Positions 4,118 to 53,126 are shown, counted from the stretch's first letter. The stretch: 64,000 bases of DNA from Bacteroidota bacterium (GCA_023432805.1 JAEYUG010000033.1:2654-66653), one strand, 5' to 3'. The notes: a model not told the origin generated them from the sequence alone. Numbers and translations: made by a program.

Positions 4118-4133
4118 GCTCCAAAAATAGCAC

Positions 4134-4156
4134 AAGTGGACGTATTAAGTCCACTT
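4134..4156. promoter_or_regulatory. Perfect 8-bp inverted repeat AAGTGGAC-N7-GTCCACTT in the AT-rich region upstream of abiEi; candidate AbiEi autoregulatory operator
   Basis: Seen directly; AbiEi proteins are known to bind inverted repeats in their own promoters. Confidence 0.4.
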
Positions 4157-22657: not shown

Positions 22658-23425
22658 CTACAGACGAAACAGTCGACGGGCGTTGGCGGTGGTGACGGCA
22701 GCGAGGTGCTCGACACTGCAACCGCGCACGCCCGCAATGTACGCGGCGATGCGCGGGATGTGCATCGGCTCGTTCCGCTTCCCCCGGAATGGCACGGGTG
22801 TCATGAACGGCGCATCGGTCTCGAGCAGCAGACGGTCGTCGGGCACGAGGCGGATCACTTCGTCGAGATCCACCTTCTTGAATGTGACGTTGCCCGTGAA
22901 CGAGATGTGAAATCCCAGATCGAGCACGCGGCGGGCGACGTCGGCATCGCTTGAGAAGCAGTGGAACTGTCCCGCGAGCGCACCACGCTGAAACGAGCGG
23001 CAGATGTCGATGATGTCGTCATCGGCCTCGCGGTTGTGGATCACCACGGGCAGCGAGAGGCGCAGCGCCAGTGCAAGCTGTTCGCCAAGCACGCGCTGCT
23101 GCACGTCGGGCGTACAGAAATCGTAATGATAGTCGAGGCCGATCTCCCCGATGGCAACTGCCTTCTCGTGCAGGGCGGCGCGCTCGACCGTGGCGAGGTA
23201 GTCCGCCGGCAGCGCACCTGCGTCGTGCGGATGCACGCCGGCGGTGAACCATGCATCCGCGAATTCGCGAGCGATGGCTTCCGCCTGATGCATCGTCTCC
23301 AGCGTGGTGGCCGGTACGACAACGCGCGTGACACCCTCGGCGCGGGCGCGTGCGAACACGGCATCGAGATCGTCCTCGAAATCCTCCCAGAAGAGGTGAC
23401 AGTGGGTATCGACAAATTCGGTCAT
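22658..23425 (-). CDS. tatD: TatD-family metal-dependent hydrolase (DNase)
   Basis: MTEFVDTHCHLFWEDFEDD...; ATGA overlap with upstream gene. Confidence 0.9.
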   Translation of the reverse strand: MTEFVDTHCHLFWEDFEDDLDAVFARARAEGVTRVVVPATTLETMHQAEAIAREFADAWFTAGVHPHDAGALPADYLATVERAALHEKAVAIGEIGLDYHYDFCTPDVQQRVLGEQLALALRLSLPVVIHNREADDDIIDICRSFQRGALAGQFHCFSSDADVARRVLDLGFHISFTGNVTFKKVDLDEVIRLVPDDRLLLETDAPFMTPVPFRGKRNEPMHIPRIAAYIAGVRGCSVEHLAAVTTANARRLFRL

Positions 23426-24660
23426 GCGGAGCCGGAGTAAAAGGACATGGCGGCGAAGGTCACACCCGATGCGCGCTCCTCCTCATGCCACTGTTCGTAG
23501 GCGAGCAGGCGTCCGTGCGCGGGATGGGTCAGATCGAAGAAGGTCGTGATGCAGGCGTATCCATCGATGCGCGTGGCATTGCCATGCGCGCGCAGCAACC
23601 GCTCGAAGCCGGCGTGATCGCCGCGTGCGAGTGCCTCGAGCTGTGCCTGATCGCTCGCGCGCACCTCGGCGAGCATGTCGCATGCGTCGCGCTCGTCACC
23701 GAACTTGCGGCCGATGTGCGACCAGTCCACACTCATCAGGTACACCACGCGGCGTCCGAGGTCCCCGATGGCGCCCTGCACGGCGTCGATGAAGGTCCGA
23801 TACCGCTGATCCTCGCGCGGCGACGTGCCCGCATGCAGATGCTGCTCCATCGACGTACAGAGCACGGGCACGATGCGGAAGGTGCGATCGGCGAAGGCAT
23901 GCTGCAGAAAGAGCACCGGGAATTCGATCGAATGTTCGGGCCGGTGCGCGATGTCGTTGCGTGTGAACACATCCCCCGACCGCTCGCGGATGCGCGCCAC
24001 CAGCTCGGTATCGGTATGGCAGACGCCGAGCGGCGTGCGGTAATGCTTCGACGTGAGAATGAACGTGTCTTCATCCGAATAGTGACTCGTGCCGAGCAGC
24101 ACCACGGTGTCGAACTCCGCATTGCCGAGCGCGCGGATGGCGGGCACGTAGACGGCGGGACCGACCTGCAGATCGATGTGCGGCGTGATGACACCGACAG
24201 GCGCTTCGCGCGGGATCTCGCCATGGTTGGCGGTCATGTGTGCACGCAGGAAGCCGTCGAGCGCATCCGGATCATCATCGTACGAGGCACCGGCGTGCAC
24301 CGCTTCCCTGATGGGAAGCGCCCGCCACGCATCCTCGACTTCCTGCCGCCGGGCACGGAAGCGGTCATCGTCGAGCAGGAGATTGTCGGCAAGCGCGCGT
24401 GCGAGTTCGGCTACGGAGGCTTCCGCAATGTCGATGCGGTGTTCGGCGCGAAGCATTGCACAGAGGTCGGCCGCGGAGCGCGATCCATCCATCAGCATGA
24501 GCAGGGCCCAGGCCTCCGGACGCAGGCGCATCATCCGATCGGAGTAGCCGTGGGGATCGCGAAGGACGATGAAGGATTCGCCGTCCTGCTCGAGCGGGAA
24601 GGCGTCGAGGTCGCGGCGCAGCGGGGAGAGGATGCGCGAGGGTGTGGCGTCAGGGTGCAT
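23422..24660 (-). CDS. MEMO1-family protein (AmmeMemoRadiSam system protein B-like)
   Basis: ITPHIDLQVGPAVY...VVLLGTSHY...VDWSHIG motifs; start MHPDATPS at 24660; upstream part of ORF 23422..25236 is out-of-frame overlap with the ATPase gene. Confidence 0.75.
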   Translation of the reverse strand: MHPDATPSRILSPLRRDLDAFPLEQDGESFIVLRDPHGYSDRMMRLRPEAWALLMLMDGSRSAADLCAMLRAEHRIDIAEASVAELARALADNLLLDDDRFRARRQEVEDAWRALPIREAVHAGASYDDDPDALDGFLRAHMTANHGEIPREAPVGVITPHIDLQVGPAVYVPAIRALGNAEFDTVVLLGTSHYSDEDTFILTSKHYRTPLGVCHTDTELVARIRERSGDVFTRNDIAHRPEHSIEFPVLFLQHAFADRTFRIVPVLCTSMEQHLHAGTSPREDQRYRTFIDAVQGAIGDLGRRVVYLMSVDWSHIGRKFGDERDACDMLAEVRASDQAQLEALARGDHAGFERLLRAHGNATRIDGYACITTFFDLTHPAHGRLLAYEQWHEEERASGVTFAAMSFYSGSA

Positions 24661-25639
24661 CGGGACGGCAGGGTTCGTACAGGAGGCAGCGTACGTGATG
24701 TCCCTCGCCGATGTCGGCCATGCGCGGCACGATCTGCGAGCAATCGGCGAAGCGCTGCGGGCAGCGGGTGTGGAAGGGGCATCCTTCGGGCACGTCGACG
24801 GGGATCGGAACATCGCCCTCGAGGAGGATGCGTTCGCGGCGGCGACGCGGATCAGGCACGGGCGCCGCGAGGATGAGGGCAGCCGTATAGGGATGCAGGG
24901 GCTCGTGCATGACGCGTTCGGCGCTGCCGAGCTCGACAATGCTGCCGAGGTACATGACGGCGATGCGGTCGGCGATGTGACGTACGACGGCAAGGTCGTG
25001 GCTGATGAACAGGTACGAAAGGCCGAAGGACCTGCGCAAGTCGAGCAGGAGGTTGAGGATCTGTGCCTGTATCGAGACGTCCAGTGCGGAGACGGGCTCA
25101 TCGCAGAGAATGAAGTCGGGCTCGACGGCGAGGGAACGGGCGATGCCAATGCGCTGGCGCTGTCCGCTGGAGAATTCATGCGGATAGCGCCGCATGTGGA
25201 AGCTGTTGAGTCCCACGATGTCGAGCAGTTCCGCAACGCGCGTGTCGCATGCGTCGGCGGGTACGATATCGTGCACCATGAGCGCTTCCCGGATTGCGCT
25301 TCCGACAGATATCCTGGGATTCAGAGACGCGTGGGGATCCTGAAAAATGATCTGCGCGCGCTTGCGGAAGGACTTGAGCGCGGAACCACGGAGCTGTGTC
25401 ACGTCGATGCCGTCGAAGGTGACATTGCCCGCAGTGGGCTTGAGCAGGCAGAGGATGATGCGTCCGAGCGTGCTTTTGCCACAGCCGGATTCGCCGACAA
25501 GCCCGAGAATCTCCCCGCGATGGACGCAGAAGCTCACGTTGTTGACAGCCTGCACGTACCCGGAGATCTTTGAGAAGATGCCGCGCCGGATGGGGAAACG
25601 CATTCCGACCTCGCGCACCTCGACGAGCGACGATCCCAT
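24650..25639 (-). CDS. Oligopeptide/dipeptide-type ABC transporter ATP-binding protein (OppF/DppF-like), orphan
   Basis: GESGCGKSTLGR Walker A, LSGGQRQRIGIARSLAVEP, C-terminal CPFHTRCP...C cysteine motif; no permease or SBP adjacent. Confidence 0.8.
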   Translation of the reverse strand: MGSSLVEVREVGMRFPIRRGIFSKISGYVQAVNNVSFCVHRGEILGLVGESGCGKSTLGRIILCLLKPTAGNVTFDGIDVTQLRGSALKSFRKRAQIIFQDPHASLNPRISVGSAIREALMVHDIVPADACDTRVAELLDIVGLNSFHMRRYPHEFSSGQRQRIGIARSLAVEPDFILCDEPVSALDVSIQAQILNLLLDLRRSFGLSYLFISHDLAVVRHIADRIAVMYLGSIVELGSAERVMHEPLHPYTAALILAAPVPDPRRRRERILLEGDVPIPVDVPEGCPFHTRCPQRFADCSQIVPRMADIGEGHHVRCLLYEPCRPDAP

Positions 25640-25729
25640 GTTCTGCACCGTCCTTCTCCCGCCCGATGTGGCGCCGGCTGTCTGCGTACCTCTTGTCGCG
25701 TCGTCCATGGCTTCAAAATAGCCACTGCC

Positions 25730-25761
25730 AGACTCGCAACGAAACAGACTCGCAACGAAAC
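25730..25761. promoter_or_regulatory. Two tandem 16-bp direct repeats AGACTCGCAACGAAAC in the divergent intergenic region, with a partial inverted copy (TTTCGTTTGCG) about 25 bp downstream
   Basis: Seen directly; lies between the divergently transcribed ATPase/MEMO operon and the partner-switching operon. Confidence 0.3.
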
Positions 25762-25958
25762 CCGGACGCGATGCGCGTTTCAGCCTTTCGTTTGCGATAT
25801 TGCGGGGGCAGCGCAATACGATCGGCCGGCGATGGCTTCCGCAGTGCGGTTTCGGATGTGACCGCAGGTGCGGTGCAACATTCGCCCCCCGACGGCGTAC
25901 GATCAGAAACGAATTGTCGCGCCTCCGACATGTCCATCCACCACCACTGTCGCACCGC

Positions 25959-28211
25959 ATGAGACTCGAACGCAAGGTCCTGGTGATCGTCTCGATCATT
26001 GCGTTCGGCGTGGACTTCCTGTACCTGGTCGCACGCAATGCCCTCCAGGATGGGGCGGGTCCCTCAGCGGATCTGTTCCATCTCGTGCTGATGCTCATCG
26101 GCGCAGCGGCATTGACCGTCTACGCGCTGCGCATCCGCGGACACGCCGAGCACAATCCCCTCCGTGTGATCGGCATCGTGGTAGGCATCGCGACGGGACT
26201 CCTCCTCCTGCTCGGTCTGTTGCAGCTGTCGACCGGTACCGAGTTCGTGATGACCGGCAAGGGATTCGGTCCGCGCAACGTCGTCAGCGTGCTGGTCGCG
26301 ATCCTGATCGGCATCACCGCGCTTGCGGGGGGCATCTTCATGTCGGTCTCCCTTGCAGAGCTGATCTTCGTCAAGCGTCGCCGCAAGACCAGGCGCAACT
26401 TCGTGCTGCTGCTTTCGATCACCGCACTCTACGCCGTGCTCGCCGCGTTCATCGACCCTTCGCTCGACGGTGACACACCCTGGCACGTGACGCTGCTGTT
26501 CGTCGTCATGCTGGCGATCATGCTCGTCAACACCTTCCGCTTCTCGTGGATCCTTGTGCTCTCACGCCGCGAAAAGCTCTTCAACCTGCTCCTCTCCTTC
26601 TTCGGCTTCGTGTTCTTCACGATGCTCGCCACCGACATCACCGTACTGACCAGCGATCCCCTGAGCGGCGGGTTGCTGCATCACGCCGTTCGCTACTACC
26701 ATCCCCTCGTCTGGGCGACCGTGTCTTCGGTCTGCCTGTTCGGCGCACTGTACATGGGCATCGGCTTCGCCAGCACCCTGCTGCATCTGCCGACGGCCAA
26801 GGAGTTCGACCGCAAGAAGGTGGAAATCAGTTCCCTCCAGAACATGGGCCGCCTTGTCACCCAGGTGTTCGACTTCGAGGAACTGGTGGGAACAAGCACG
26901 GCACTCGCGCTGGATGTGTGCGAGGCGAACGCCGCGTGGCTCGAGCTCGCCATCCCCGATACGCAGGTGGCGGGATCGACCGATGCACACCTCGCCCTCA
27001 CGTCGGAAGCCACCGCCGACGCCGGCTTCGATGTGATCAGCGAATCCCTGCGCGGCATCACCATCGATCAGATCATGCGCATGCGCATGGATGGCGGGCA
27101 GCATCTGCGCGAACTCGTCGCCGAGACCGCACGCGCCATCGTCATTCAGGACGTGCAGGCCGACCGGCGCCTGAACGCGGCACAGTTGCACACGATCGGC
27201 ATCGGATCGCTCGCCCTCGTGCCCCTGCTCAGCCACGACCGCCTCATCGGCATCCTCGGCGTGGTGAAGAAGAATCCCTACGAATTCGACAAGGACGTGC
27301 TCACCGTGCTCTACGCCTTCGCCGACATGGTGTCGATCGCGCTCGAGAACAGCCGCCTGATCGAGGAGAGTCTGCGTCGCGAGCGCTTCCAGCAGGAGAT
27401 CCGCGTGGCGCAGGACATGCAGCGCAGTCTGCTGCCTGTGCTGCTTCCCGTCGCAGACACCTACGCGCTCGCCGCGACGAGCCTGCCGGCGTATGAAGTT
27501 GGTGGGGACTATTACGACGTCGTGCAGCTCGACAACGACAGGCTCGGTATCACCATCGGCGACGTGTCGGGCAAGGGTGTGTCTGCAGCGTTGTACATGG
27601 CGCAGGTCAAGGGCATCTTTCAGACGCTGAGTTCGCACGGACTCTCCACCCGAGAGAGTCTCATGGCGATGAACGAGACACTGCGCAAGAACATGGATCG
27701 CCGCTCGTTCATCAGCCTGATCTACGGCGTGCTCGACATCCGCACCGGCCACCTGCGCTTTTCGCGTGCGGGTCATTGTCCGCTGCTGTATATTTCGCGA
27801 CAAACCGTGCGTTTTCTTCGTCCCGACGGCATGGGCCTCGGATTGTCGGGGACAGAGCAGTTCGCATCCTCGCTCAAGGAAGAGGAGGTTCAGCTCGAAC
27901 CCGGTGATGTCATGGTGCTCTACACCGACGGCATCACGGAGGCGAAGACCAGGTCCGGTGATGAATTCGGCACCGATCGCCTCGCACACATCGTTGAACA
28001 ACTGCAACACGAATCCGTTGAAACCATCATGACGTCCATCGTCAAAACCGTGAAAGAGTATACAGGAGCCGGCGAAGCCGAGGATGACATGACCGTCATG
28101 GTCTTGCGTTGGGATGGCGCGGCCTCCGGCGCATCCGACCCTGCGTCGGGAGGACGCGACGCGCACGCGCACGGCATCGGGCAGCCACAGCAAGAAGGAG
28201 CGGCAGCATGA
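25959..28211 (+). CDS. Membrane-bound GAF-domain PP2C-type serine phosphatase (RsbU/SpoIIE-like) with ~8 N-terminal TM helices
   Basis: N-terminal hydrophobic helices; GAF-like central region; C-terminal PP2C motifs GGDYYDVVQLDNDRLGITIGDVSGKGVSAALYM ... TDGITEA. Confidence 0.85.
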   Translation: MRLERKVLVIVSIIAFGVDFLYLVARNALQDGAGPSADLFHLVLMLIGAAALTVYALRIRGHAEHNPLRVIGIVVGIATGLLLLLGLLQLSTGTEFVMTGKGFGPRNVVSVLVAILIGITALAGGIFMSVSLAELIFVKRRRKTRRNFVLLLSITALYAVLAAFIDPSLDGDTPWHVTLLFVVMLAIMLVNTFRFSWILVLSRREKLFNLLLSFFGFVFFTMLATDITVLTSDPLSGGLLHHAVRYYHPLVWATVSSVCLFGALYMGIGFASTLLHLPTAKEFDRKKVEISSLQNMGRLVTQVFDFEELVGTSTALALDVCEANAAWLELAIPDTQVAGSTDAHLALTSEATADAGFDVISESLRGITIDQIMRMRMDGGQHLRELVAETARAIVIQDVQADRRLNAAQLHTIGIGSLALVPLLSHDRLIGILGVVKKNPYEFDKDVLTVLYAFADMVSIALENSRLIEESLRRERFQQEIRVAQDMQRSLLPVLLPVADTYALAATSLPAYEVGGDYYDVVQLDNDRLGITIGDVSGKGVSAALYMAQVKGIFQTLSSHGLSTRESLMAMNETLRKNMDRRSFISLIYGVLDIRTGHLRFSRAGHCPLLYISRQTVRFLRPDGMGLGLSGTEQFASSLKEEEVQLEPGDVMVLYTDGITEAKTRSGDEFGTDRLAHIVEQLQHESVETIMTSIVKTVKEYTGAGEAEDDMTVMVLRWDGAASGASDPASGGRDAHAHGIGQPQQEGAAA

Positions 28212-28561
28212 GTGATTTCAATGTCGGCGTGCGGCATGTGGACCGTGTGACCGTGCTCGACCTGCGCGGGTACCTCGACGCACATACCGCACCCGAACTC
28301 GAACGGGCCTTCCAGTCCAACATCGACAACAGCCGCTTCAATCTCGTGGTGAATTTCTCGGAACTCTCGTACATCTCGAGTGCGGGGCTCGGTGTGCTCA
28401 TGCAGTTCATCGAGGATGTGCGCCGCAACGAGGGAGACATCAAGTTGACGAACATGTCGGCGCGTGTCTACAACGTCTTCGATCTGCTCGGCTTCCCCAT
28501 GCTCTATGAGATCTACCCCGACGAAGGGGATGCCGTCGCGAAGTTCCAGAACAATTCCTGA
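28208..28561 (+). CDS. STAS-domain anti-sigma-factor antagonist (RsbV/SpoIIAA-like)
   Basis: MSDFNVGVRHVDRVTVLDLRGYLDAHTAPELE...LSYISSAGLGVL (conserved phosphorylatable Ser context); ATGA overlap. Confidence 0.85.
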   Translation: MSDFNVGVRHVDRVTVLDLRGYLDAHTAPELERAFQSNIDNSRFNLVVNFSELSYISSAGLGVLMQFIEDVRRNEGDIKLTNMSARVYNVFDLLGFPMLYEIYPDEGDAVAKFQNNS

Positions 28562-28618
28562 TCCTCTCCGTATCCCCACGCAACGCACAGCGACGCACCG
28601 CAGCCTCCGACGGCGCAC

Positions 28619-29083
28619 GTGACCACTCCCGACCGACATATCGACCGCACGCTGGAAATCAACAGCCGCACCGACCTGCTCGGTGATGTGCGCGCCTTCG
28701 TGACGCGCGCGGCGGCGGATTTCGGATTCGGCGGCGACGACGTCGGTGCCATCGAGCTGGCGGTGGATGAGGCGATCACCAACATCATCAAGCATGCCTA
28801 CAAGTACGATCCCTCCGGCGTGATCCGCGTCGTGGTCACGACCCAGGAGAACGGCGAGGGACGCGGCCGCTTCACCGTCAGCATTTCGGATACGGGTATT
28901 TCGTTCGACACCTCGCGCTACCATGCTCCCGACATGGCCGAGTACTTCCGCACGCTGCGACGCGGCGGACTCGGCATCGTGCTGATGAACAAGCTGATGG
29001 ACGAGGTCATCTACGACATCCATCCCGGTGCGGCGAACCACCTGCGCCTGGTCAAGTACCGCGCCTCCTCCTCCCTTTCCTGA
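28619..29083 (+). CDS. RsbW/SpoIIAB-like anti-sigma regulatory serine kinase (HATPase_c)
   Basis: ELAVDEAITNIIKHAY (N-box) ... ISDTGISFD ... GGLGIVLMNKLMDEV (G-boxes); GTG start. Confidence 0.8.
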   Translation: MTTPDRHIDRTLEINSRTDLLGDVRAFVTRAAADFGFGGDDVGAIELAVDEAITNIIKHAYKYDPSGVIRVVVTTQENGEGRGRFTVSISDTGISFDTSRYHAPDMAEYFRTLRRGGLGIVLMNKLMDEVIYDIHPGAANHLRLVKYRASSSLS

Positions 29084-29099
29084 TCGCGTCGATCGCGGC

Positions 29100-30881
29100 A
29101 TGACCGATCCGACGCACGCTCCCCTGCCTGCTGCACCGCAAGGCGACAACGCGACGCGACGTGCGGGCGATGCCTATTCCGACAGCGCGGCACTGCTCGA
29201 ACTCAGTTCCATCCTCAACGCCTCGCTCGATCTCCCCTTCATCCTCAGCAACGTACTGCTCTCGCTCATGGGCAAGCTGCTTGCCACCCGCGGCGTCGTG
29301 CTGGTCGAGCACGACCAGTGGTGCTATCGCGTCGCGAGCCTGAAGGGCGTGACGGGCCGCAGCCTCGACACCGAATTCGTGCTGCCCGTCGACTGGCCGG
29401 GGTTCCTCGCTCTCGACACCCTCGACGACACCCTCGACGAACACGTGCGCGAATTCGCGAACTGCTGCAGGGAATGCGGCATCCGTGTGCTCGTGCCGAT
29501 GCGTGTCGAGGAGCGCATGGTCGGCGTGATCGGTCTCGGTGCGCGACTCAACGGCGCGGACTATGACGCGCCCGCCGTCACCTTCATCGAGAGCGTCGCC
29601 GCCGTGGCGGCATCCGCCGTGAAGAACGCCGTGACGATCGACGCCCTGCGCGATGCCAACCGCCGGCTCGACGCCAAGTATCAGGAGATGAACACGCTCT
29701 TCGAACTCAGCCGCGAAATGACGGGCACCTTCGATGAGCAGAACATTCTGCGCGTGCTCGGCTACGCGCTCATGGGCCAGATGCGCGCCATGCGCTATGT
29801 CGTGTTCGTGCGCGATGGCGACACCATGCGTCCCACACTCGTGCGCATCGACGGCGTCGACACGGATGTCGATCACGCGCGCGACATGCTCGCCTGCACC
29901 CGGCCCGTACGACTCGGTGCAGACCACCAGCCCGCATCGGCATTCGAGCAGTGGATGCTCTCGCTGGGCATCGGTGTGATCATTCCGATGATCGGACAGC
30001 GGCAGGTTCGCGGACTGCTCTGCATCGGCGAGCGGCTCGGGGGACAGCCCTTCGACAGCGCGGAAATCGAATACCTCGGTGCGCTCGCAAACATCACGAT
30101 GAGTGCGCTCGAAAACGCGCGCCTCGTCAAGGAAACCGTCGAGAAGGAGCGCCTCGAACGCGAGCTCGATCTCGCGCGCACCATCCAGAAGGGCCTGCTG
30201 CCCGACCACCTGCTCTCGCCCGACGGCTATCACGTCGCCGCGCTGAACGAATCGTCGCAGCAGGTCGGCGGAGACTACTACGATGTGATCGCCCTCTCTC
30301 CGACACGCAGCGTACTCGCGATAGGTGATGTTGCAGGAAAGGGCATCCCCGCCTCGCTCCTCATGGCCAATGTGCAGGCCGCGTTCCGCACCATCATCCC
30401 CCTCGGTCTCTCCCCTGCGGAAGCCACCGCGCGCATCAACATCCTCGTGCACGCCAACACCGCAATCGACAAGTTCATCACCTTCTTCTGGGGTGTGCTC
30501 GACACCGAGGAACACACCTTCACCTACGTCAATGCGGGACACAATCCCCCCTGCCTCGTCCGTGCCGACGGCACGCTTTCGCTGCTCGAACATGGTGGCC
30601 TGATCCTCGGCGTCATGCCCGATCCGCCGCCCTACGCCAGCGACACCGTCTCGCTGCTGCCCGGTGACACCCTCGTGTTGTACACCGACGGCGTGAACGA
30701 AGCGCTCTCGAGCGAGATGAAGGAATTCGGGGATGACCGCCTGCAGCAGCTGATCATCGAACAGTCCGGCGTGGACGCAGACCGCATGCTGGAAGCCGTG
30801 CGTGACGCCGTACACGACTTTACCACCGGAGCACCGCAGTCCGACGACATCACACTGCTGGTCCTGCACCGCCTCCCCTGA
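29100..30881 (+). CDS. Cytoplasmic tandem-GAF PP2C-type serine phosphatase (second RsbU/RsbP-like phosphatase)
   Basis: VGGDYYDVIALSPTRSVLAIGDVAGKGIPASLLMA ... LYTDGVNEA PP2C motifs; no TM segments. Confidence 0.85.
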   Translation: MTDPTHAPLPAAPQGDNATRRAGDAYSDSAALLELSSILNASLDLPFILSNVLLSLMGKLLATRGVVLVEHDQWCYRVASLKGVTGRSLDTEFVLPVDWPGFLALDTLDDTLDEHVREFANCCRECGIRVLVPMRVEERMVGVIGLGARLNGADYDAPAVTFIESVAAVAASAVKNAVTIDALRDANRRLDAKYQEMNTLFELSREMTGTFDEQNILRVLGYALMGQMRAMRYVVFVRDGDTMRPTLVRIDGVDTDVDHARDMLACTRPVRLGADHQPASAFEQWMLSLGIGVIIPMIGQRQVRGLLCIGERLGGQPFDSAEIEYLGALANITMSALENARLVKETVEKERLERELDLARTIQKGLLPDHLLSPDGYHVAALNESSQQVGGDYYDVIALSPTRSVLAIGDVAGKGIPASLLMANVQAAFRTIIPLGLSPAEATARINILVHANTAIDKFITFFWGVLDTEEHTFTYVNAGHNPPCLVRADGTLSLLEHGGLILGVMPDPPPYASDTVSLLPGDTLVLYTDGVNEALSSEMKEFGDDRLQQLIIEQSGVDADRMLEAVRDAVHDFTTGAPQSDDITLLVLHRLP

Positions 30882-30900: not shown

Positions 30901-32196
30901 ATGACCGATACCGCCACCGCTCCCCGCATCCTTCCCGAACCACCCGCCATCTTCCGCTGGCTGGTGCTCATCGTCATCAGCCTCGCGATGTTCGGGAACT
31001 ACTACATCTATGATTCGATCAGTCCCCTCGCCGACGTCCTCGTCTCACAGCTCGGTTTCACCGATGCAAACATCGGTCTGCTGCAGGGCATCTACAGCAT
31101 CCCGAACATCATCATGGTGCTCATCGGCGGTGTGATCATCGACCGGATCGGCACGAAGAAATCCATTCTGATCTTTTCGCTGTTCTGCTTCGCCGGTGCG
31201 GTGCTCACCGCCTCGGCCGGCGACCTCACCGTCATGGCAGCCGGACGTCTTCTCTTCGGTCTCGGCGCCGAGTCGATGATCGTGGCCGTCACCACCTCCC
31301 TCGCCCGCTGGTTTAAGGGCAAGGAACTCAGCTTTGCATTCGGTCTCAATCTCACCATCGCACGACTCGGCTCCTTTGCTGCGCTGAACTCGCCGACCTG
31401 GGCGCGCGGACTGTATGACTCGTGGCAGGAACCGCTGCTGCTCTCGGTCGGTGCCGGTGTGATCTGCATCGCGACTGCGCTCATCTACTTCGGGCAGGAC
31501 GGCTATGCATCGCGCCGCTATACACTGGCCGGCGCGGGTGAAACCGACAAAGTCGCGTTCAGCGACATCTTCAAGTTCGGCGGATCGTATTGGTTCGTCG
31601 TACTGCTGTGCATCACCTTCTACTCGGGCATCTTTCCCTTCCAGACCTTCGCCATCAAGTTCTTCCAGGATGCGCACGGCGTGTCGCGCGAGACGGCGGG
31701 ATTCCTCTCGAGCATGCTCACCCTGTTCGCGATGATCGCCACGCCGCTCTTCGGTCTGCTCGCCGACAAGATCGGGAAGCGCGCACTGTTCATGATGTTC
31801 GGTTCGATCCTTCTCATGCCCGTGTACCTCATCATGGCCTACACCGACATCAGCCTGTATGTGCCGATGGCGATGATGGGCATCGCCTTCTCGCTCATTC
31901 CCGCCGTCATGTGGCCCTCGGTTACCTATCTCGTCGACGGCTCCCGCCTCGGCACCGCCTACGGCATGATGACGATGATCCAGAACATCGGACTGGCGGG
32001 ATTCAATCTCCTGATCGGCTACGTGAACGACGCTTCCGCTGCGAGTGCCGCAAACCCCGACGGCTACACCAATGGCATGCTGATCTTCTCCATCCTCGGC
32101 TTCGCCGGATTCCTCTTCGCCTTCCTGCTCAGACGACGGGAACTGGGTCCCCACGGCCACGGCCTCGAGACGATCACGACGAAGACCGGCGCGTAG
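30901..32196 (+). CDS. MFS transporter (12 TM)
   Basis: Hydrophobic 431 aa, MFS loop motif GGVIIDRIGTKK. Confidence 0.85.
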   Translation: MTDTATAPRILPEPPAIFRWLVLIVISLAMFGNYYIYDSISPLADVLVSQLGFTDANIGLLQGIYSIPNIIMVLIGGVIIDRIGTKKSILIFSLFCFAGAVLTASAGDLTVMAAGRLLFGLGAESMIVAVTTSLARWFKGKELSFAFGLNLTIARLGSFAALNSPTWARGLYDSWQEPLLLSVGAGVICIATALIYFGQDGYASRRYTLAGAGETDKVAFSDIFKFGGSYWFVVLLCITFYSGIFPFQTFAIKFFQDAHGVSRETAGFLSSMLTLFAMIATPLFGLLADKIGKRALFMMFGSILLMPVYLIMAYTDISLYVPMAMMGIAFSLIPAVMWPSVTYLVDGSRLGTAYGMMTMIQNIGLAGFNLLIGYVNDASAASAANPDGYTNGMLIFSILGFAGFLFAFLLRRRELGPHGHGLETITTKTGA

Positions 32197-32275: not shown

Positions 32276-33916
32276 TCAGCGCAGCACGATGATGCGCGTG
32301 CGGGCCGAGCCCTGCCGGGTGAGGAGCCGTGCGACGTACATGCCGGCGGGCAGGCGCCCGGGGATCCATTGCACGGTGTGCGTGCCGGCGTCGCGCCATC
32401 CGGCCGACCATGACCATACACGTCGTCCACTGGTATCGTGCACGGCGATGTCGGCAGTGCCGGAGCGCGGCAGCGTGAATGCGAGCAGGGTGCTGGTTCG
32501 CACGGGATTAATGAGGGCCTGCAGCTCCGGCTCCTGCGGCAACGCTGGCGCCGACCCTGCCGACACCGTGCCGTAGTCGAAGGGTTCATCGACCATGTGG
32601 TACTGCGCCTCGCTCTGCCCGTTGTAATCCCGACGGAGGTAGGGGCACAGCAGGGGTGTCCGGGGTTGATCGGAAAGCTGGATGCGCTGTGGGACTCCCC
32701 CGTTCCAGTCGTACAACGGCACCTCGGCGGGATCGAACATGGGGAGGAGTCCGCGCTCATGCGCGATGTGGAAGAGCCCGAAATTCCCGGGTTCGTGCCC
32801 GGCGAGCCATGTGCCGATCACATCGACGAGGAAGGGATTGGTCCCGAACACCAGGATGTTGCTCATGAAATCCTGCGGCGTGTTTCCGGCACCGGGTCCG
32901 TGATTGAACCCGTCGCCATTGCGCCCGTAGATGCCCTCGATGACGTGAAGGCCGGGACGCATGACCGTGTGCGAATCGCAGGTGCGCTGCGCCCAGGTTT
33001 CCATGCCGTAACCGCCGGCAGCGTCGCGTCCCGGGCGATCCCAGCGCGGGATGCCTGCGGCCAGATGGCGTGCATACGCAGCGTCGATGCGCTGTTCGAA
33101 GTCCGTGTGGAAATCGAGGAGCACGCCGGCAGGATGCTTCCGCGTGTTGTCGACGCCTTCGCAAAACCGGACATACGGACTGACAACCGTTCCCTGCAGG
33201 TTCTTCGCGCAGAGGGTCATCCCCATGGAATGCGTTTTGAACTTGGCGACATTCAGCATCCACGTGTCGTCGTCATTGAACGGGGCGAGATATCCGATGC
33301 GTCGGAACACCTCGCCTGACGGCACATCCCGCCAGATCACTTCGGTACCGCTGACCAGGTCTGCGAGCTGCATGTCGTAGATCATCCGTCCGCTCGCGAA
33401 GTCGAACAGATGCATGCCGTGCTTTTGCGCGATGGCGTTCATCTTGACACCGGTCACGAGATACTCGCCGGCGCAATAGCCGTTCGCCATCCAGTTGCCC
33501 TCGCGCGCGAACATGTTGTAGCCGGGGAACCCGGTCTCGCGCATGCCTTCGAGCAGACCGTCGAGCACATCGAGATCGGTGACGATGCCCATGCCCGCAG
33601 GGGTATTGCCCGTCCCCGAGGTGCAGGTCAGATTCGGTTTCACCGTGATGGCGTTCGTGAAGGGAACGCCCTGCGTCTCGCTCGCGGTGAAGCACTCCCG
33701 CGCAAACGCAAGTCCCTCGGCCCGCTTCGCCGCCTCGTCGAGCTTGTCGGCGACAGCGGTTCGGCGTATGAAGACCGCTTCGGGATGTGCAGTGAGAAAG
33801 GGATGCGGAAGGATGTATGCGGGTGCTGCGGATCGGTGCGCGCGAAGCATCGATGGAAACAGCAGCGAGCCCGCAACGGCGGCGGGCACACCGGTCAGGA
33901 AGTCACGTCTGCGCAT
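32276..33916 (-). CDS. Tat-signal DUF362-like secreted protein with T9SS C-terminal sorting domain
   Basis: MRRRDFLTG twin-arginine motif; ITVKPNLTCTSGTG (DUF362-like); C-terminal AVHDTSGRRVW...PAGMYVARLLTRQGSARTRIIVLR CTD. Confidence 0.7.
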   Translation of the reverse strand: MRRRDFLTGVPAAVAGSLLFPSMLRAHRSAAPAYILPHPFLTAHPEAVFIRRTAVADKLDEAAKRAEGLAFARECFTASETQGVPFTNAITVKPNLTCTSGTGNTPAGMGIVTDLDVLDGLLEGMRETGFPGYNMFAREGNWMANGYCAGEYLVTGVKMNAIAQKHGMHLFDFASGRMIYDMQLADLVSGTEVIWRDVPSGEVFRRIGYLAPFNDDDTWMLNVAKFKTHSMGMTLCAKNLQGTVVSPYVRFCEGVDNTRKHPAGVLLDFHTDFEQRIDAAYARHLAAGIPRWDRPGRDAAGGYGMETWAQRTCDSHTVMRPGLHVIEGIYGRNGDGFNHGPGAGNTPQDFMSNILVFGTNPFLVDVIGTWLAGHEPGNFGLFHIAHERGLLPMFDPAEVPLYDWNGGVPQRIQLSDQPRTPLLCPYLRRDYNGQSEAQYHMVDEPFDYGTVSAGSAPALPQEPELQALINPVRTSTLLAFTLPRSGTADIAVHDTSGRRVWSWSAGWRDAGTHTVQWIPGRLPAGMYVARLLTRQGSARTRIIVLR

Positions 33917-34072
33917 GCACCTTCTCCAGCGAGATCGAAATTGCAGGATTGTGGATGCAAGCTACGGCACATGCAGGACAATTGCATCCGAAACGCTGAA
34001 ACTCCTTCCGGCGGCCTCCCATCAAAGCGGCGCCCCTATGCGGAAGTCCCCGGGTGGAACGATGCGAGGAAC

Positions 34073-34450
34073 TTACTTGACAAGCTCGCCCGATGCGGTG
34101 CGCAGGCGCACGAAGCCGCGCTGATGCAGCTGCCGGAAGAAGGCGGCGATGCGGTCATGCACGGGCTCGACCTCTTCGCCGTATTCGGTGCGCAGACGCT
34201 CGGCGATCACGCCCACGTCGGTCGCGCCGTCGATCGCGTTCCATACGTGCGAACCGAAGGCATCGAGCTTGATGCGGATGTAGGGGTACTTGCGCTTCGG
34301 GACAAGATGCTTCTGCATCCAAGGGATGTGGAAGCGGGGCATGTCGACTTCGACGATGCCCTCGTCGTTCGTCGCGGAAGTCCAGCAACGCTCGGGCACG
34401 AGCTCGAGCAGATTCAGGTCGGGACGCGGTGTGCGTGAAAAGAGAGGCAT
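34073..34450 (-). CDS. PqqD-family protein (RiPP recognition element-like peptide chaperone), standalone
   Basis: C-terminal ~60 aa GSHVWNAIDGATDVGVIAERLRTEYGEEVEPVHDRIAAFFRQLHQRGFV matches the PqqD/RRE pattern (w..lDGk.tv.ei...l..ey.....e...dv..fl..L...gll). Confidence 0.6.
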   Translation of the reverse strand: MPLFSRTPRPDLNLLELVPERCWTSATNDEGIVEVDMPRFHIPWMQKHLVPKRKYPYIRIKLDAFGSHVWNAIDGATDVGVIAERLRTEYGEEVEPVHDRIAAFFRQLHQRGFVRLRTASGELVK

Positions 34451-34510
34451 GGAAGACTCGGGACTATGAAACAGGCGGGTCGCCCCGCCTGTTTCGTTGC
34501 ATCGATGCTG

Positions 34511-36562
34511 TTACATCGCGCGCGGAGGCGCGGGATCGTTCGGATTGCCGGCATTGCTGGTCGGAACCTTCACGAGATACCAGCCGATGAAAAGGAAGAT
34601 CAGCAGGCTGGGGAGGAACGACAGCATGGAACCGTCTTGCGGGAAGATCGAAGGGACGTTCCACTCCATGACGGCCATGAAGGCGAAGAGCAGACCGATG
34701 AGTGCCTCGCCGGCGATGAGTCCCGCAGCGAGCAGCACACCGTTGTTCTCGACGCGGGCGGCCTGCGCCTCGTTGTACTGACGGCGCTTGACGACCTTGT
34801 CGGCGATACCGCGAATCACACCGCCGATGAAGATTGCGAACGAGGTTTCGAGCGGCAGGTACATGCCCACGCACACGAGCATGGGACTCTTGACTCGGAC
34901 GAGGATGAACCCGATCGCCATGAGAATGCCGACGATGATCAGCGGCCAGGCCATGTCGCCGCCGACAATGCCCTTCGAGAGAATCGCCATGAGGCTTGCC
35001 TGGGGAGCCGGATATTGCTGACCGCCGAGACCGGTCCCGCCTGCATTGATGTCGCCTTGGTGGAGAATCCACAGCGGGAAGAACATCACGCCTGCCGAGA
35101 TGATGACGCCAAGGAAATCTCCGACCTGCATCTTCCACGGCGTACCGCCGAGAATGTGCCCGACCTTGAGATCCTGCAGCATTTCACCGGCCACGGCCGC
35201 GGCGACGCAGATGACTGCGGCCACGCCGAGCACGGCCGCCACACCCGACATGCCCTTGACACCGAGCGCCACCATGAGGATGGCAGCGATGATGAGCGTC
35301 GAAATGGTCAGGCCGGAAATGGGGTTGTTGCTCGAGCCGATGAGACCGACCAGGTAGCCCGACACCGCGGCGAAGAAGAAGCCCGCGATGATCATCACCA
35401 CGGTCGCGGTCAACGATGCGGTGAGGTTGCCACCGGGATGCTCGGGCGATACGGTGAAGTACATGTAGATCACGAAGGTCGCGATCGAGGCGAGCACGAG
35501 ACCGATGAACACCCACTTGAAGGGAAGGTCCTTCTCCGTGCGGTCTTCGGCAACGCCGCCCGAGGCTGCCTTGCTGATGTCACGCACCGCGCGGCCGATG
35601 CCGGTCGCGAGGCTCTTGCGCATCTTGTAGAGCGTGAAGGCCGCGCTCATGAGCATGCCACCGATGGCGATGGGACGCACGATGTCCTTCCAGACCTGTA
35701 CGGCCATGCCGATCATGTTCGGTTCCTTGCCGGCGTTCTCGGGAATCGCGAAGAACGCGTCGAGGAGCTCGGGACCCAGAAAATACAGGAGCAGGGGCAC
35801 GAAGAGTCCCCACGCCAGCAGACCACCCGTGAAGTTCAGCGCGGCAAGCTCGGGTCCGATGATGTAGCCGACGCCCATGTACGCGGGCGAGACGCCCGGC
35901 GTCGAGATGAGCGCACCGCCGCCGGCCTGCACCGTTCCGTGCGAACCGAGGCCCAGCGACTTCTTCGCAAACTCGATGAACACTTCGCCCTTCGATGCGA
36001 AGAGCTTGAACTCCTTGAAAAACTGGACGGCGGCGCCGATGATCATTGCGACGAAGAGGAACTTCGCGCCGCTCTGGCCGCCCTGCCCTGCCTTGTGGAT
36101 TTCCGAGGCAGCGACTGATTCCGGGAAGGGAAGCTCGCGATCCTCGACCATGACGCGGCGCAGGATCGTGACGAAGAGGATACCGATGAAACCGCCGACG
36201 AGCATGATTGCCGTGGCTTCCAGATAATGACTGAGTGTGAGGAACTCGCCCTCCCACACGCCCGAAATCATGAACGCGGGAATGGTGAAGATGGCGCCGG
36301 CCGCGATCGACTCACCGATGGAACCGACGGTACGGGTGATGTTCTCTTCGAGAATCGTGCCCTTCATGAGCTTGAGCAGCGCCATGCCGATCACTGCCGC
36401 CGGATAGGTGGCTGCAATCGTCATGCCCGCCTTCAGGCCGAGGTAGGCGTTCGCCGCTCCGAGGATCACCGAGAGAACCAGACCGATGATCAGGGCACGA
36501 AGGGTGAACTCCTTCATGTCCATGGTGACCGGAACGTATGGAACGTGTTTGTGCTCTGCCAT
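34511..36562 (-). CDS. OPT-family oligopeptide transporter
   Basis: MAEHKHVPYVPVTMDMKEFTLRALIIGLVLSVILGAANAYLGLKAGMT... typical OPT N-terminus, ~16 TM. Confidence 0.9.
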   Translation of the reverse strand: MAEHKHVPYVPVTMDMKEFTLRALIIGLVLSVILGAANAYLGLKAGMTIAATYPAAVIGMALLKLMKGTILEENITRTVGSIGESIAAGAIFTIPAFMISGVWEGEFLTLSHYLEATAIMLVGGFIGILFVTILRRVMVEDRELPFPESVAASEIHKAGQGGQSGAKFLFVAMIIGAAVQFFKEFKLFASKGEVFIEFAKKSLGLGSHGTVQAGGGALISTPGVSPAYMGVGYIIGPELAALNFTGGLLAWGLFVPLLLYFLGPELLDAFFAIPENAGKEPNMIGMAVQVWKDIVRPIAIGGMLMSAAFTLYKMRKSLATGIGRAVRDISKAASGGVAEDRTEKDLPFKWVFIGLVLASIATFVIYMYFTVSPEHPGGNLTASLTATVVMIIAGFFFAAVSGYLVGLIGSSNNPISGLTISTLIIAAILMVALGVKGMSGVAAVLGVAAVICVAAAVAGEMLQDLKVGHILGGTPWKMQVGDFLGVIISAGVMFFPLWILHQGDINAGGTGLGGQQYPAPQASLMAILSKGIVGGDMAWPLIIVGILMAIGFILVRVKSPMLVCVGMYLPLETSFAIFIGGVIRGIADKVVKRRQYNEAQAARVENNGVLLAAGLIAGEALIGLLFAFMAVMEWNVPSIFPQDGSMLSFLPSLLIFLFIGWYLVKVPTSNAGNPNDPAPPRAM

Positions 36563-36694
36563 GCAGGTCTCCTGATGGTATGAACGATGGATGGATGTAC
36601 GGGTGTTGGTGGCGTATTCCCTCACGGGGAGGGAATCGCAAAAAATAGAACGACAGGTCCGAAAATACAACTCGGAATCGGGATGCCGCAGGTC

Positions 36695-46545: not shown

Positions 46546-46627
46546 CCGTCGCTTCACTGCCGGCTGCTTCATCGTGAATGGGAAGCGTTGTATTTTCAGG
46601 GATGTCCGTGTATCGCCCCACCCATCG

Positions 46628-53113: not shown

Positions 53114-53126
53114 GAGTGCAGCGACG

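What the first reader, a model, noticed from the sequence alone, without database searches (positions are those of the whole stretch)
25959..30881. Partner-switching module with two GAF-PP2C phosphatases and no cognate sigma factor
The order is a membrane 8-TM GAF-PP2C phosphatase, a STAS antagonist, an RsbW-like kinase, then a second cytoplasmic tandem-GAF PP2C phosphatase, followed directly by an MFS transporter rather than a sigma factor. The kinase therefore presumably targets a non-sigma output or an unlinked sigma factor. Two differently localised input phosphatases suggest integration of an envelope signal and a cytoplasmic signal. The divergent upstream region carries tandem direct repeats (25730-25761) that could be its regulatory site.
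Basis: partly seen in the sequence, partly recalled or inferred. Interest (0 to 1): 0.55.

Follow-up and report, generated by a model that had tools for sequence, protein, structure and literature searches.

The report
Sigma-less partner-switching operon with ECF-type promoter
This is a real, intact phosphorylation-switch signalling operon with two sensor phosphatases, their substrate protein and its kinase; it is a new member of a well-known kind, notable because it is conserved across a large bacterial group, has an uncharacterised membrane sensor, and carries a conserved promoter of the type read by stress (ECF) sigma factors encoded elsewhere.

Summary
Five co-directional, tightly spaced genes encode:
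- an 8-TM/GAF/PP2C phosphatase (25959-28211);
- a STAS protein (28208-28561);
- an RsbW/SpoIIAB-like Ser kinase (28619-29083);
- a cytoplasmic tandem-GAF PP2C phosphatase (29100-30881);
- an MFS transporter (30901-32196).

All catalytic and phospho-acceptor motifs are intact and conserved in about 50 related loci. No sigma factor gene lies in the operon or anywhere in the 64-kb window.

The phosphatase-STAS-kinase core, often with the second phosphatase, is a conserved cassette. It occurs in Bacteroidota, Ignavibacteria, Calditrichota, KSB1 and Rhodothermales, including cultured Cytophagales. Flanking genes differ between lineages.

Two new points:
- An ECF-type promoter motif, TGCAAC-N16-CGTA (25874-25899), sits 79-86 nt upstream of the first gene in every locus of the window's clade. 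It is unique in the window.
- In Ignavibacteria, the orthologous operon is headed by an ECF sigma gene and a membrane anti-sigma-like gene. That second gene has lost its sigma-binding domain in most lineages.

Verdict: a new variant of a known kind. The output is unresolved; the best guess is an unlinked ECF sigma. Interest is moderate.

The parts
25729..25761 (.). Perfect 16-bp tandem repeat (CAGACTCGCAACGAAA x2.1), 21-53 nt from the start codon of the divergent ABC ATPase gene. An imperfect inverted copy, TTTCGTTTGCGA, lies at 25786-25797.
   Evidence: TRF; sequence. Only the first unit (CTCGCAAYGAAAC) and the block GTTTGCGATATTGC are conserved in relatives at about 80% identity. The second unit is degenerate there, and the repeat is absent in more distant loci.
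25874..25899 (+). Candidate ECF-type promoter TGCAAC-N16-CGTA. The -35 element is at 25874-25879 and the -10 element at 25896-25899. The motif starts 84 nt upstream of gene A's ATG.
   Evidence: It is the only match in the 64-kb window on either strand. The same motif lies at -79 to -86 in all window-clade loci: L087, L088, L089, L090, L091, L001, L007, L002. In each it occurs once per 8-22 kb locus and always on the + strand. Shuffled upstream regions contain it at a frequency of about 0.001.
25959..28211 (+). Gene A: membrane phosphatase, 750 aa. 8-TM domain aa 1-276 (25959-26786); post-TM helix with the HLPTAKEFDRKK motif; GAF aa ~320-443 (26916-27287); helical linker aa 445-491 (27291-27431); PP2C aa 500-718 (27456-28112).
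   Evidence: Pfam; hydropathy; AF2 models. Foldseek matches the PP2C domain to RssB, SpoIIE, Rv1364c and SiaA. Metal-binding Asp residues D517, D520, D535, D657, D709 and D710 are invariant in 105 homologues.
28208..28561 (+). Gene B: single-domain STAS protein, 117 aa. The putative phospho-acceptor is Ser58 (codon 28379-28381) in the motif YISSAGLGV.
   Evidence: Pfam STAS 2e-19; NCBIfam anti-sigma factor antagonist superfamily, above its cut-off. Ser58 aligns with the phospho-Ser of SpoIIAA and RsbV. It is conserved in 54 of 54 loci.
28619..29083 (+). Gene C: RsbW/SpoIIAB-like GHKL serine kinase, 154 aa. N-box E51/N55/H59; G1 box D91-x-G93-x-x-F96; G2 box G116-G117-L118-G119.
   Evidence: Pfam HATPase_c_2 3e-25. 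Best PDB matches are RsbW 6m36 (2e-13) and SpoIIAB. The best NCBIfam match is RsbW, but at 72 bits it is below the equivalog cut-off of 145. The motifs are conserved in 50-53 of 53 loci.
29100..30881 (+). Gene D: cytoplasmic phosphatase, 593 aa. GAF-like aa ~31-181 (29190-29642); GAF aa ~215-345 (29742-30134); helical linker; PP2C aa 385-591 (30252-30872).
   Evidence: Pfam (GAF_3 in two stretches, GAF, SpoIIE 7e-52). The NCBIfam DgcA model matches the N-terminal region aa 31-181, taken here as a GAF-like domain. No TM segment. Motifs GGDYYD, GDVAGKG, YTDGV and DDIT are present; three are conserved in 35 of 35 orthologues and GGDYYD in 32 of 35.
30901..32196 (+). Gene E: MFS transporter, 431 aa, 19 nt after D. 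Probably the last gene of the operon.
   Evidence: Pfam MFS_1 2e-37. It follows D only in the closest relatives: L087, and L007 at 82% identity. It is absent after D in L090, L001, L002 and L004. The next gene lies on the opposite strand.
24650..25708 (-). Context: divergent upstream ABC ATPase with an oligo_HPY domain, followed by Memo, TatD, a second ABC ATPase and ApaG genes.
   Evidence: Pfam; gene calls. This synteny is kept in L001, L002 and L088 but interrupted in L090. In L090 the promoter motif stays with gene A.

Best explanation
The locus is one operon (A-B-C-D-MFS) encoding a RsbU/RsbV/RsbW-type partner-switching module.

Shown by sequence:
- STAS protein B has the conserved phospho-acceptor Ser58.
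- Kinase C has an intact ATP-binding Bergerat fold.
- Both PP2C phosphatases have all metal-binding residues.
- Each phosphatase has a GAF sensor joined to the catalytic domain by a long helix.
- A is anchored by a family-specific 8-TM domain that has short, variable outer loops and highly conserved cytoplasmic-face motifs.

Inferred from the established mechanism of these families:
- C phosphorylates B on Ser58, which keeps B off C.
- A membrane- or envelope-derived signal (through A) or a cytoplasmic ligand (through D's GAF domains) activates the phosphatases via their helical linkers.
- B is then dephosphorylated, binds C, and C releases its alternative partner.

Inferred from comparative genomics:
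- The operon is transcribed from a conserved ECF-type promoter, TGCAAC-N16-CGTA.
- The partner released by C is therefore most likely an ECF-type sigma factor encoded elsewhere in this genome. That would give positive feedback, as in the sigB operon.
- In Ignavibacteria this sigma gene sits at the head of the same operon.

Confidence by layer:
- Functional partner-switching module: about 0.85.
- ECF-dependent promoter: about 0.7.
- C directly sequesters an ECF sigma: about 0.35-0.4.
For: Module integrity:
- Pfam, NCBIfam and PDB matches.
- Motif conservation over 53-54 loci, 105 A homologues and 35 D orthologues.
- PP2C fold confirmed by Foldseek.

Operon:
- A 4-nt overlap and gaps of 16-57 nt.
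- The A-B-C(-D) order is conserved in about 50 loci with unrelated flanks.

Linker mechanism:
- The A model has a continuous helix at aa 445-491 between GAF and PP2C.
- PMC12143880 shows that GAF- and tandem-GAF-PPM phosphatases are controlled through such linkers.

ECF link:
- The motif is unique in the window and occurs at -79 to -86 in all window-clade loci.
- Its chance frequency is about 0.001 per upstream region, giving a product below 1e-12 over four independent loci.
- In L090 the upstream genes differ, yet the motif stays with gene A.
- Ten Ignavibacteria loci carry ECF sigma, gene X and the module on one strand with small gaps. Most of these sigma genes are preceded by GGAAC-N16/17-CGTC.
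- The sigma is ECF-type by NCBIfam.
- X is an anti-sigma-like protein (zf-HC2/RseA_N N-terminus) in its long form, but most X family members lack that domain. This leaves room for another anti-sigma factor such as C.
Against: - No sigma gene is in the window, so the proposed partner is hypothetical for this genome.
- To my knowledge, RsbW/SpoIIAB-type anti-sigma factors are documented only for group-3 (and possibly group-1) sigmas. A large ECF classification lists no such mode.
- In four Ignavibacteria loci the ECF sigma has its own anti-sigma domain protein alongside the module. The module could therefore be a regulon member rather than the regulator.
- The motif was not found upstream of gene A in other clades (L004, L008, L010-L015, Cytophagales).
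- The promoter is a 10-base consensus with no transcript data.
- No interaction or phosphorylation was tested.
Confidence: 0.4

Rival explanations
1. The same partner-switching biochemistry operates, but the output is not a sigma factor. Unphosphorylated STAS protein B (or kinase C) binds a non-sigma target such as an enzyme, a transporter or a regulator. This is the model proposed for SypA, BtrV, HsbA and RbaV. The ECF-type promoter then only places the module inside an envelope-stress regulon.
For: - No sigma gene is linked in the window or in most clades.
- Sigma-less modules with no identified sigma target are documented (PMC3999984).
- In the long-X Ignavibacteria loci the sigma already has its own anti-sigma-like protein.
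- B is the best conserved protein of the module, at 50-76% identity against 35-59% for C.
Against: - No conserved candidate target gene flanks the module across clades.
- The MFS gene is linked only in the closest relatives.
- The head-of-operon sigma and the loss of X's sigma-binding domain in most Ignavibacteria are then unexplained coincidences.
Confidence: 0.3
2. C is an anti-sigma factor for a non-ECF sigma encoded elsewhere. Candidates are the primary sigma (as proposed for chlamydial RsbW) or a FliA-like group-3 sigma.
For: - C is closest to RsbW and SpoIIAB, which bind group-3 sigmas.
- The chlamydial Rsb system likewise has a membrane RsbU (sensor phosphatase) and no linked sigma (PMC11619594, abstract).
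Against: - The cassette occurs in Cytophagales. From general knowledge, these are non-flagellated gliding bacteria that lack group-3 sigmas.
- No such sigma is linked in any of 91 loci.
- This model does not explain the ECF-type promoter or the ECF sigma linkage.
Confidence: 0.12
3. B-C-D works like RsbS-RsbT-RsbU. C is a switch kinase whose alternative partner is phosphatase D. C activates D, and A resets B as RsbX does. The output is D acting on an unlinked substrate.
For: The gene order STAS-kinase-PP2C, with a further PP2C, mirrors rsbS-rsbT-rsbU...rsbX. This parallel is from established knowledge; PMC12143880 describes RsbT activating RsbU.
Against: - D is missing from many loci that keep A-B-C: L001, L024, L034, L038, L039 and all Cytophagales.
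- D has GAF domains, not the RsbU N-terminal four-helix domain.
- C matches RsbW and SpoIIAB, with no RsbT hit at E<=0.01.
- No RsbR-like stressosome protein is nearby.
Confidence: 0.08

Closest known systems
Bacillus subtilis sigma-B network (RsbU and RsbP phosphatases, RsbV, RsbW, sigma-B)
   Same: A STAS antagonist with a phospho-Ser, a GHKL kinase/anti-sigma factor, and two PP2C input phosphatases carrying different sensor modules that converge on one STAS protein. The operon is driven by the type of alternative-sigma promoter it may itself control.
   Different: - No sigma gene is in the operon.
- C scores well below the RsbW equivalog cut-off (72 against 145 bits).
- One phosphatase is an 8-TM membrane protein.
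- The promoter is ECF-type, not sigma-B-type.
Clostridioides difficile RsbZ (tandem GAF-PPM phosphatase of the sigma-B pathway; PMC12143880)
   Same: D has the same architecture: two N-terminal GAF domains, a helical linker and a PPM domain.
   Different: RsbZ acts in an operon-linked sigma-B system. Sequence relatedness to D was not tested here.
Chlamydia Rsb system (membrane RsbU, RsbV1/RsbV2, RsbW; PMC11619594)
   Same: A Gram-negative partner-switching module with a membrane-anchored PP2C sensor phosphatase, no adjacent sigma gene and a disputed target.
   Different: Chlamydial RsbU has a periplasmic ligand-binding domain. Here the sensor is a compact 8-TM bundle with minimal outer loops plus a GAF domain, there is a single STAS protein, and there is a second, cytoplasmic phosphatase.
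SpoIIE-SpoIIAA-SpoIIAB (sporulation sigma-F control)
   Same: A polytopic membrane PP2C phosphatase that dephosphorylates a STAS protein, which in turn antagonises a GHKL kinase/anti-sigma factor. Foldseek places A's PP2C domain next to SpoIIE.
   Different: A scores 54 bits against the SpoIIE equivalog cut-off of 491. The TM domain is unrelated and A has a GAF domain. The organism is not a sporulating Firmicute.
Orphan partner-switching systems: Rhodobacter capsulatus RbaV/RbaW/RbaY and Bordetella BtrU/V/W (PMC3999984)
   Same: A three-component set with no linked sigma factor. In those systems the STAS protein is suspected to be the real output.
   Different: Those systems have different sensor domains, and no ECF-type promoter or ECF sigma linkage has been reported for them.

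Membership tests
RsbV/RsbW/RsbU-type partner-switching module | Single-domain STAS protein with a phosphorylatable Ser in the conserved loop (DSSG-like) | tested here: met
   B matches Pfam STAS at 2e-19. Ser58 aligns with SpoIIAA and RsbV phospho-Ser and is conserved in 54 of 54 loci.
RsbV/RsbW/RsbU-type partner-switching module | HATPase_c_2 (GHKL) serine kinase with N, G1 and G2 boxes | tested here: met
   E51 and N55, D91 and G93, and G116-G119 are conserved in 50-53 of 53 loci.
RsbV/RsbW/RsbU-type partner-switching module | PPM/PP2C (SpoIIE-type) phosphatase with a complete metal-binding site | tested here: met
   A and D both match Pfam SpoIIE at 1e-49 or better. The Asp residues are invariant. 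The fold matches RssB, SpoIIE and Rv1364c.
RsbV/RsbW/RsbU-type partner-switching module | A cognate sigma factor encoded with the module | tested here: not met
   No sigma-70 family gene is in the operon or the 64-kb window. One is present only in the orthologous Ignavibacteria loci.
RsbV/RsbW/RsbU-type partner-switching module | Phosphorylation-dependent exchange of the kinase between STAS and a second partner | not testable with these tools
   This needs biochemistry or multimer modelling. Only single-chain prediction was available.
RsbW (anti-sigma-B) orthologue | Score above the NCBIfam equivalog cut-off | tested here: not met
   NF003144: 72 bits against a cut-off of 145. TIGR01924: 66 bits against 155. 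C is RsbW-like, not an RsbW orthologue.
SpoIIE orthologue | Score above the TIGR02865 cut-off over the full length | tested here: not met
   54 bits against a cut-off of 491, and only the PP2C part matches.
Stressosome / RsbT-type switch | RsbT-like kinase with RsbR/RsbS STAS scaffold proteins, and a phosphatase with an RsbU N-terminal domain | tested here: not met
   No RsbT match at E<=0.01. There is no RsbR-like gene nearby. D carries GAF domains instead.
ECF sigma-dependent promoter | -35 element containing AAC and -10 element containing CGT, 16-17 nt apart, conserved in position upstream of orthologous genes | tested here: met
   TGCAAC-N16-CGTA at 25874-25899. It is unique in the window, lies at -79 to -86 in all window-clade loci, and has a chance frequency of about 0.001 per region.
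ECF sigma-dependent promoter | Transcription start and dependence on an ECF sigma | not testable with these tools
   No transcript data are available, and the sigma gene is not in the window.

The most novel reading that the evidence does not exclude
An RsbV/RsbW/PP2C-type phospho-partner switch controls an ECF (group 4) sigma factor. This regulatory mode is absent from current ECF catalogues. In the ancestral or Ignavibacteria form, the sigma gene and a membrane anti-sigma factor that has lost its sigma-binding domain head the operon. In the window's lineage the sigma gene has moved away, but the operon keeps the sigma's autoregulatory promoter. On this reading, the family-specific 8-TM/GAF phosphatase is a new type of envelope sensor feeding an ECF response across the Bacteroidota-Ignavibacteria-Calditrichota group.
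Probability: 0.3. Interest if true: 0.7.

Novelty: new variant of a known kind. Interest (0 to 1): 0.45.

Why it matters
Orphan partner-switching modules are common in Gram-negative bacteria, and their targets are mostly unknown.

This family offers a concrete, testable lead:
- a conserved ECF-type promoter;
- in sister lineages, an ECF sigma gene in the same operon.

It is also present in cultivable Cytophagales (Algoriphagus, Hymenobacter, Roseivirga) and in Ignavibacteria/Melioribacteraceae, so experiments are feasible.

If the kinase does sequester an ECF sigma, that would add a new regulatory mode for the largest sigma factor family. It would also define a new membrane sensor domain: 8 TM helices, no Pfam model and no structural homologue in the PDB.

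If it does not, the locus is simply one more well-preserved, uncharacterised Rsb-like module.

Tried and rejected
- **Sigma gene just outside the annotation.** Rejected. Pfam on all main ORFs, tblastn with the Ignavibacteria sigma, X and STAS2 proteins, and an ECF HMM against all six-frame ORFs found nothing.
- **Tandem repeat as a conserved operator.** Not supported. The second unit is degenerate in relatives at 80% identity, and the repeat is absent beyond them.
- **Known fold for the 8-TM domain.** None found. The best Foldseek PDB hit has E 0.1 and TM-score at or below 0.3, and there is no Pfam hit. An exhaustive search found 178 representative clusters. The full-length proteins among those listed are about 665-775 aa, the size of TM-GAF-PP2C proteins, so the domain does not appear to be shared with other outputs.
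- **Finding the sigma-X pair in the window's clade through X.** The X family (65 proteins) is restricted to Ignavibacteria and Melioribacteraceae.
- **RsbT-like reading of C.** Disfavoured.
- **MFS transporter as a conserved partner.** It is linked only in the closest relatives.
- **Sigma-70-type promoter scan of the region.** No sites. The terminator-like hits were not above expectation.
- **Rfam and tRNA scans of the window.** Nothing found.
- **Literature.** Searches for a described Bacteroidota system of this kind, and for RsbW-type control of ECF sigmas, found none.

Full report
**1. What is there**

The window is about 63% G+C. Between 25959 and 32196 it carries five co-directional genes with high third-position G+C. 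Translations and Pfam give:

- A, 25959-28211, 750 aa: hydrophobic N-terminus, GAF, SpoIIE/PP2C.
- B, 28208-28561, 117 aa: STAS.
- C, 28619-29083, 154 aa: HATPase_c_2.
- D, 29100-30881, 593 aa: GAF hits in two stretches, SpoIIE/PP2C.
- E, 30901-32196, 431 aa: MFS_1.

The public contig that carries an identical protein A has the same gene calls. A and B overlap by ATGA, and the other gaps are 57, 16 and 19 nt. The next gene downstream (DUF362) and the next upstream (an ABC ATPase ending at 25708) are on the other strand. The five genes therefore most simply form one operon, bounded by a 250-nt divergent intergenic region.

**2. Are the parts functional?**

- STAS protein B aligns with SpoIIAA and RsbV so that its Ser58 (YISSAGLGV) matches their phosphorylated serine.
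- Kinase C's best solved relatives are RsbW (6m36, 2e-13) and SpoIIAB. Its N-box (E51, N55, H59), G1 box (DTGISF; RsbW has DEGDSF) and G2 box (GGLG) are present.
- I collected B and C orthologues from 53-54 related loci. Ser58 is invariant, and the kinase boxes are kept in 50-53 of 53.
- Both phosphatases carry the four PPM motifs GGDYYD, GDV(S/A)GKG, YTDG and DDxT. The corresponding Asp residues are invariant in 105 A homologues. Three of the motifs are kept in 35 of 35 D orthologues and GGDYYD in 32 of 35.
- An AlphaFold2 model of A (pLDDT 88.9) places its C-terminal domain next to the RssB, SpoIIE, Rv1364c and SiaA phosphatase domains in the PDB.

**3. Sensor parts**

Hydropathy gives eight hydrophobic segments in A. 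The models give eight TM helices at aa 5-29, 39-59, 67-90, 108-136, 142-164, 175-192, 203-227 and 249-276. There is only a short beta-hairpin and a short helix on the outer side. The last TM helix runs on as a cytoplasmic helix into the GAF domain. The distribution of basic residues fits an N-in/C-in topology, read directly from the sequence.

The most conserved positions of this domain lie on the cytoplasmic face:

- KRRRxTRRNF
- NSFRFSWILxLSRREKL
- HLPTAKEFDRKK

The TM domain has no Pfam model and no significant structural match in the PDB (best E 0.1). In an exhaustive search it occurs in 178 representative clusters. The full-length proteins among those listed are about 665-775 aa long, consistent with the same TM-GAF-PP2C architecture. 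It is thus a dedicated sensor of unknown signal. With such small outer loops, a membrane or intramembrane cue is more likely than a periplasmic ligand; this is inference.

D has no TM segment. It has two GAF-like regions, aa ~31-181 and ~215-345. This is the same architecture as C. difficile RsbZ (PMC12143880).

In both proteins a long helix links GAF to PP2C (aa 445-491 in the A model). That paper shows such linkers transmit sensor signals to the PPM switch element.

**4. No sigma factor here**

Pfam scans of the neighbours and of all other main ORFs in the 64 kb found no sigma-70 family domain. A profile built from ECF sigmas of related loci found nothing among all 672 six-frame ORFs of at least 50 aa, even at E<=10. 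The second refutation test, a sigma gene just outside the annotation, is also not met.

**5. The cassette is conserved**

Protein A has full-length homologues at 38-82% identity in many MAGs labelled Bacteroidota or Ignavibacteria. I compared gene contexts for 91 loci.

- The order A-B-C is kept in about 50 loci from Bacteroidota, Ignavibacteria, Kryptoniota, Calditrichota, KSB1 and Rhodothermales, with unrelated flanking genes.
- D follows C in most of them. It is missing in some, for example L001, L024 and L038.
- Many Ignavibacteria loci add a third PP2C gene of about 850 aa.
- Cultured Cytophagales (Algoriphagus halophytocola, A. namhaensis, Hymenobacter polaris, Roseivirga sp.) have the three-gene core. 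Their A protein is also polytopic and keeps the LFNLPTSSVFEQK motif.
- The MFS gene follows D only in the closest relatives: L087, and L007 at 82% identity. It is not a general part of the system.

**6. A lead on the missing sigma**

I took a census of 126 flanking ORFs of sigma-like size around these cassettes. Sigma70_r2/r4_2 was the commonest family, found in 10 members. Nine belong to Ignavibacteria loci with one common arrangement; a tenth such locus, L029, carries only a partial copy of the sigma gene. In that arrangement:

- An ECF-type sigma gene (NCBIfam sigma70-ECF) comes first.
- It is followed within -4 to +68 nt, or overlapped where the X ORF is over-extended (L036), by a gene X.
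- X is followed by A-B-C-D and a third PP2C gene, all on one strand.
- A second, highly conserved STAS gene lies divergently upstream.

X has no significant full-length Pfam match. Its long form (about 510-545 aa) starts with an anti-sigma-like zf-HC2/RseA_N segment (LSAYIDGELS...) before its single TM helix. The short form, which is the majority of the 65 family members, lacks that segment entirely. The X family is confined to Ignavibacteria and Melioribacteraceae. None of sigma, X or the second STAS gene is in the window.

**7. A conserved ECF-type promoter in the window**

I aligned the A-upstream region with relatives at about 80% identity. The invariant blocks GGTGCAACATT and CGGCGTAC flank a variable spacer. 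This reads as TGCAAC-N16-CGTA at 25874-25899.

The AAC/CGT pattern with 16-17 nt spacing is the hallmark of ECF promoters. This rests on established knowledge, for example B. subtilis sigma-W with TGAAAC-N16-CGTA.

- The motif occurs once in the whole window, counting both strands.
- It occurs once in each 8-22 kb locus of the window's clade, always on the + strand, 79-86 nt before A's ATG.
- This includes loci whose A proteins are only 45-54% identical and whose intergenic sequences are otherwise unalignable.
- It also includes L090, where different genes lie upstream.
- Shuffled upstream regions contain the motif at about 0.001. The product over four independent loci, excluding the window, is below 1e-12.
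- In the Ignavibacteria loci, GGAAC-N16/17-CGTC precedes the sigma gene in 8 of 9, as expected for an autoregulated ECF operon.
- The motif was not found upstream of A in several other clades or in Cytophagales. The link is therefore not shown to be universal.

**8.

CAGACTCGCAACGAAA x2.1 at 25729-25761 is real and perfect. It lies 21-53 nt from the start codon of the divergent ABC ATPase gene.

In relatives at 80% identity only the first unit, and a nearby block GTTTGCGATATTGC that contains an inverted half-copy, are conserved. The second unit is degenerate. More distant loci have nothing similar. The repeat may be a local operator, but it is a recent duplication and not the conserved regulatory feature of the cassette.

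**9. How it most likely works**

Shown:
- A complete, intact and conserved partner-switching gene set.
- Two sensor phosphatases, one in the membrane and one in the cytoplasm.
- An ECF-type promoter motif conserved in position.

Inferred from the families:
- C phosphorylates B-Ser58.
- A and D dephosphorylate B-P when their sensors are triggered.
- B then captures C, and C's other partner is freed.

Inferred from comparative genomics:
- That partner is most likely an ECF sigma encoded elsewhere, which also drives the operon. I put this at about 0.35-0.4.

Main rival, at about 0.3:
- The module is merely a member of an ECF regulon, and its output is a non-sigma target of B or C. This is the model proposed for several orphan systems (PMC3999984).

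Less likely readings:
- A non-ECF sigma target.
- An RsbS-RsbT-RsbU-like cascade in which C activates D. D is dispensable in many loci, and C resembles RsbW and SpoIIAB rather than RsbT.

**10. Comparison and novelty**

Functionally this is an Rsb/SpoIIA-type switch. C and A are not orthologues of RsbW or SpoIIE, since their scores are far below the equivalog cut-offs.

- Two input phosphatases: B. subtilis RsbU and RsbP.
- A tandem-GAF PPM: RsbZ.
- No linked sigma: Chlamydia, Bordetella, Rhodobacter.

What is new:
- The breadth and conservation of this particular cassette in the FCB group.
- Its dedicated 8-TM sensor domain.
- The ECF promoter and ECF sigma linkage. A major ECF classification does not list RsbW/STAS-type control, and I found no paper describing this system.

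I rate it a new variant of a known kind, of moderate interest.

Noticed in passing
L018, L019, L020, L022, L028, L029, L031, L036, L041, L056 (e.g. L019:7444-17008): Ignavibacteria orthologous loci form a larger cluster. A divergent second STAS gene is followed by an ECF sigma gene, membrane protein X, A-B-C-D, and a third PP2C of about 850 aa (PDZ-like hit + GAF). X has a zf-HC2/RseA_N-like anti-sigma N-terminus in its long form (about 520 aa), but most family members (about 420-435 aa) lack it.
   Followed up: yes
window 30901-32196; L007:15050-16393: The MFS transporter after gene D is 82% identical between the window and L007. The module proteins of the same two loci are only 46-73% identical. 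The transporter is either under much stronger constraint or was exchanged more recently. Its substrate is unknown, with only weak matches to organic-anion MFS families.
   Followed up: partly
window 25959-26819 (protein A aa 139-148, 191-207, 276-287): The most conserved parts of the 8-TM domain are cytoplasmic-face motifs: KRRRxTRRNF, NSFRFSWILxLSRREKL and HLPTAKEFDRKK. The outer loops are short and variable. This suggests a docking or relay surface rather than an external ligand site. The motifs are recognisable even in the Cytophagales versions (LFNLPTSSVFEQK).
   Followed up: partly
window 2535-4135: An AbiEii toxin / AbiEi antitoxin pair (type IV TA / abortive infection) lies in the lowest-G+C stretch of the window's first half (0.58 against about 0.64).
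   Followed up: no
window 13456-14916, 23422-24660, 32276-37390: There are several peptide-related genes: a radical SAM/SPASM enzyme, a Memo-like protein with an N-terminal PqqD-like segment, a stand-alone PqqD-like protein, DUF362, an OPT oligopeptide transporter and a TENA/PqqC-like protein. Together they may be a RiPP-type or peptide-handling set flanking the module. PqqD-OPT-TENA is also kept in L087.
   Followed up: no
window 10413-13061, 42907-46545, 46520-48118: Three large ORFs with coding-like composition (882, 1212 and 532 aa) have no Pfam match at E<=1e-4.
   Followed up: no
window 48121-60247 and 19276-21159: These are type IX secretion-related genes: a TonB-dependent receptor, a PorV-like protein, a 1955-aa SdrD-B/DUF11 surface protein with a Por_Secre_tail, and a collagen-repeat protein next to a Por_Secre_tail gene. 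They support a Bacteroidota-type host.
   Followed up: no
L027:9401 and L033:9746: Two Calditrichota loci carry GCAACTTTC...GGATTACGT (N17) 195 nt upstream of the A ORF. This may be the same promoter type in a distant clade.
   Followed up: partly
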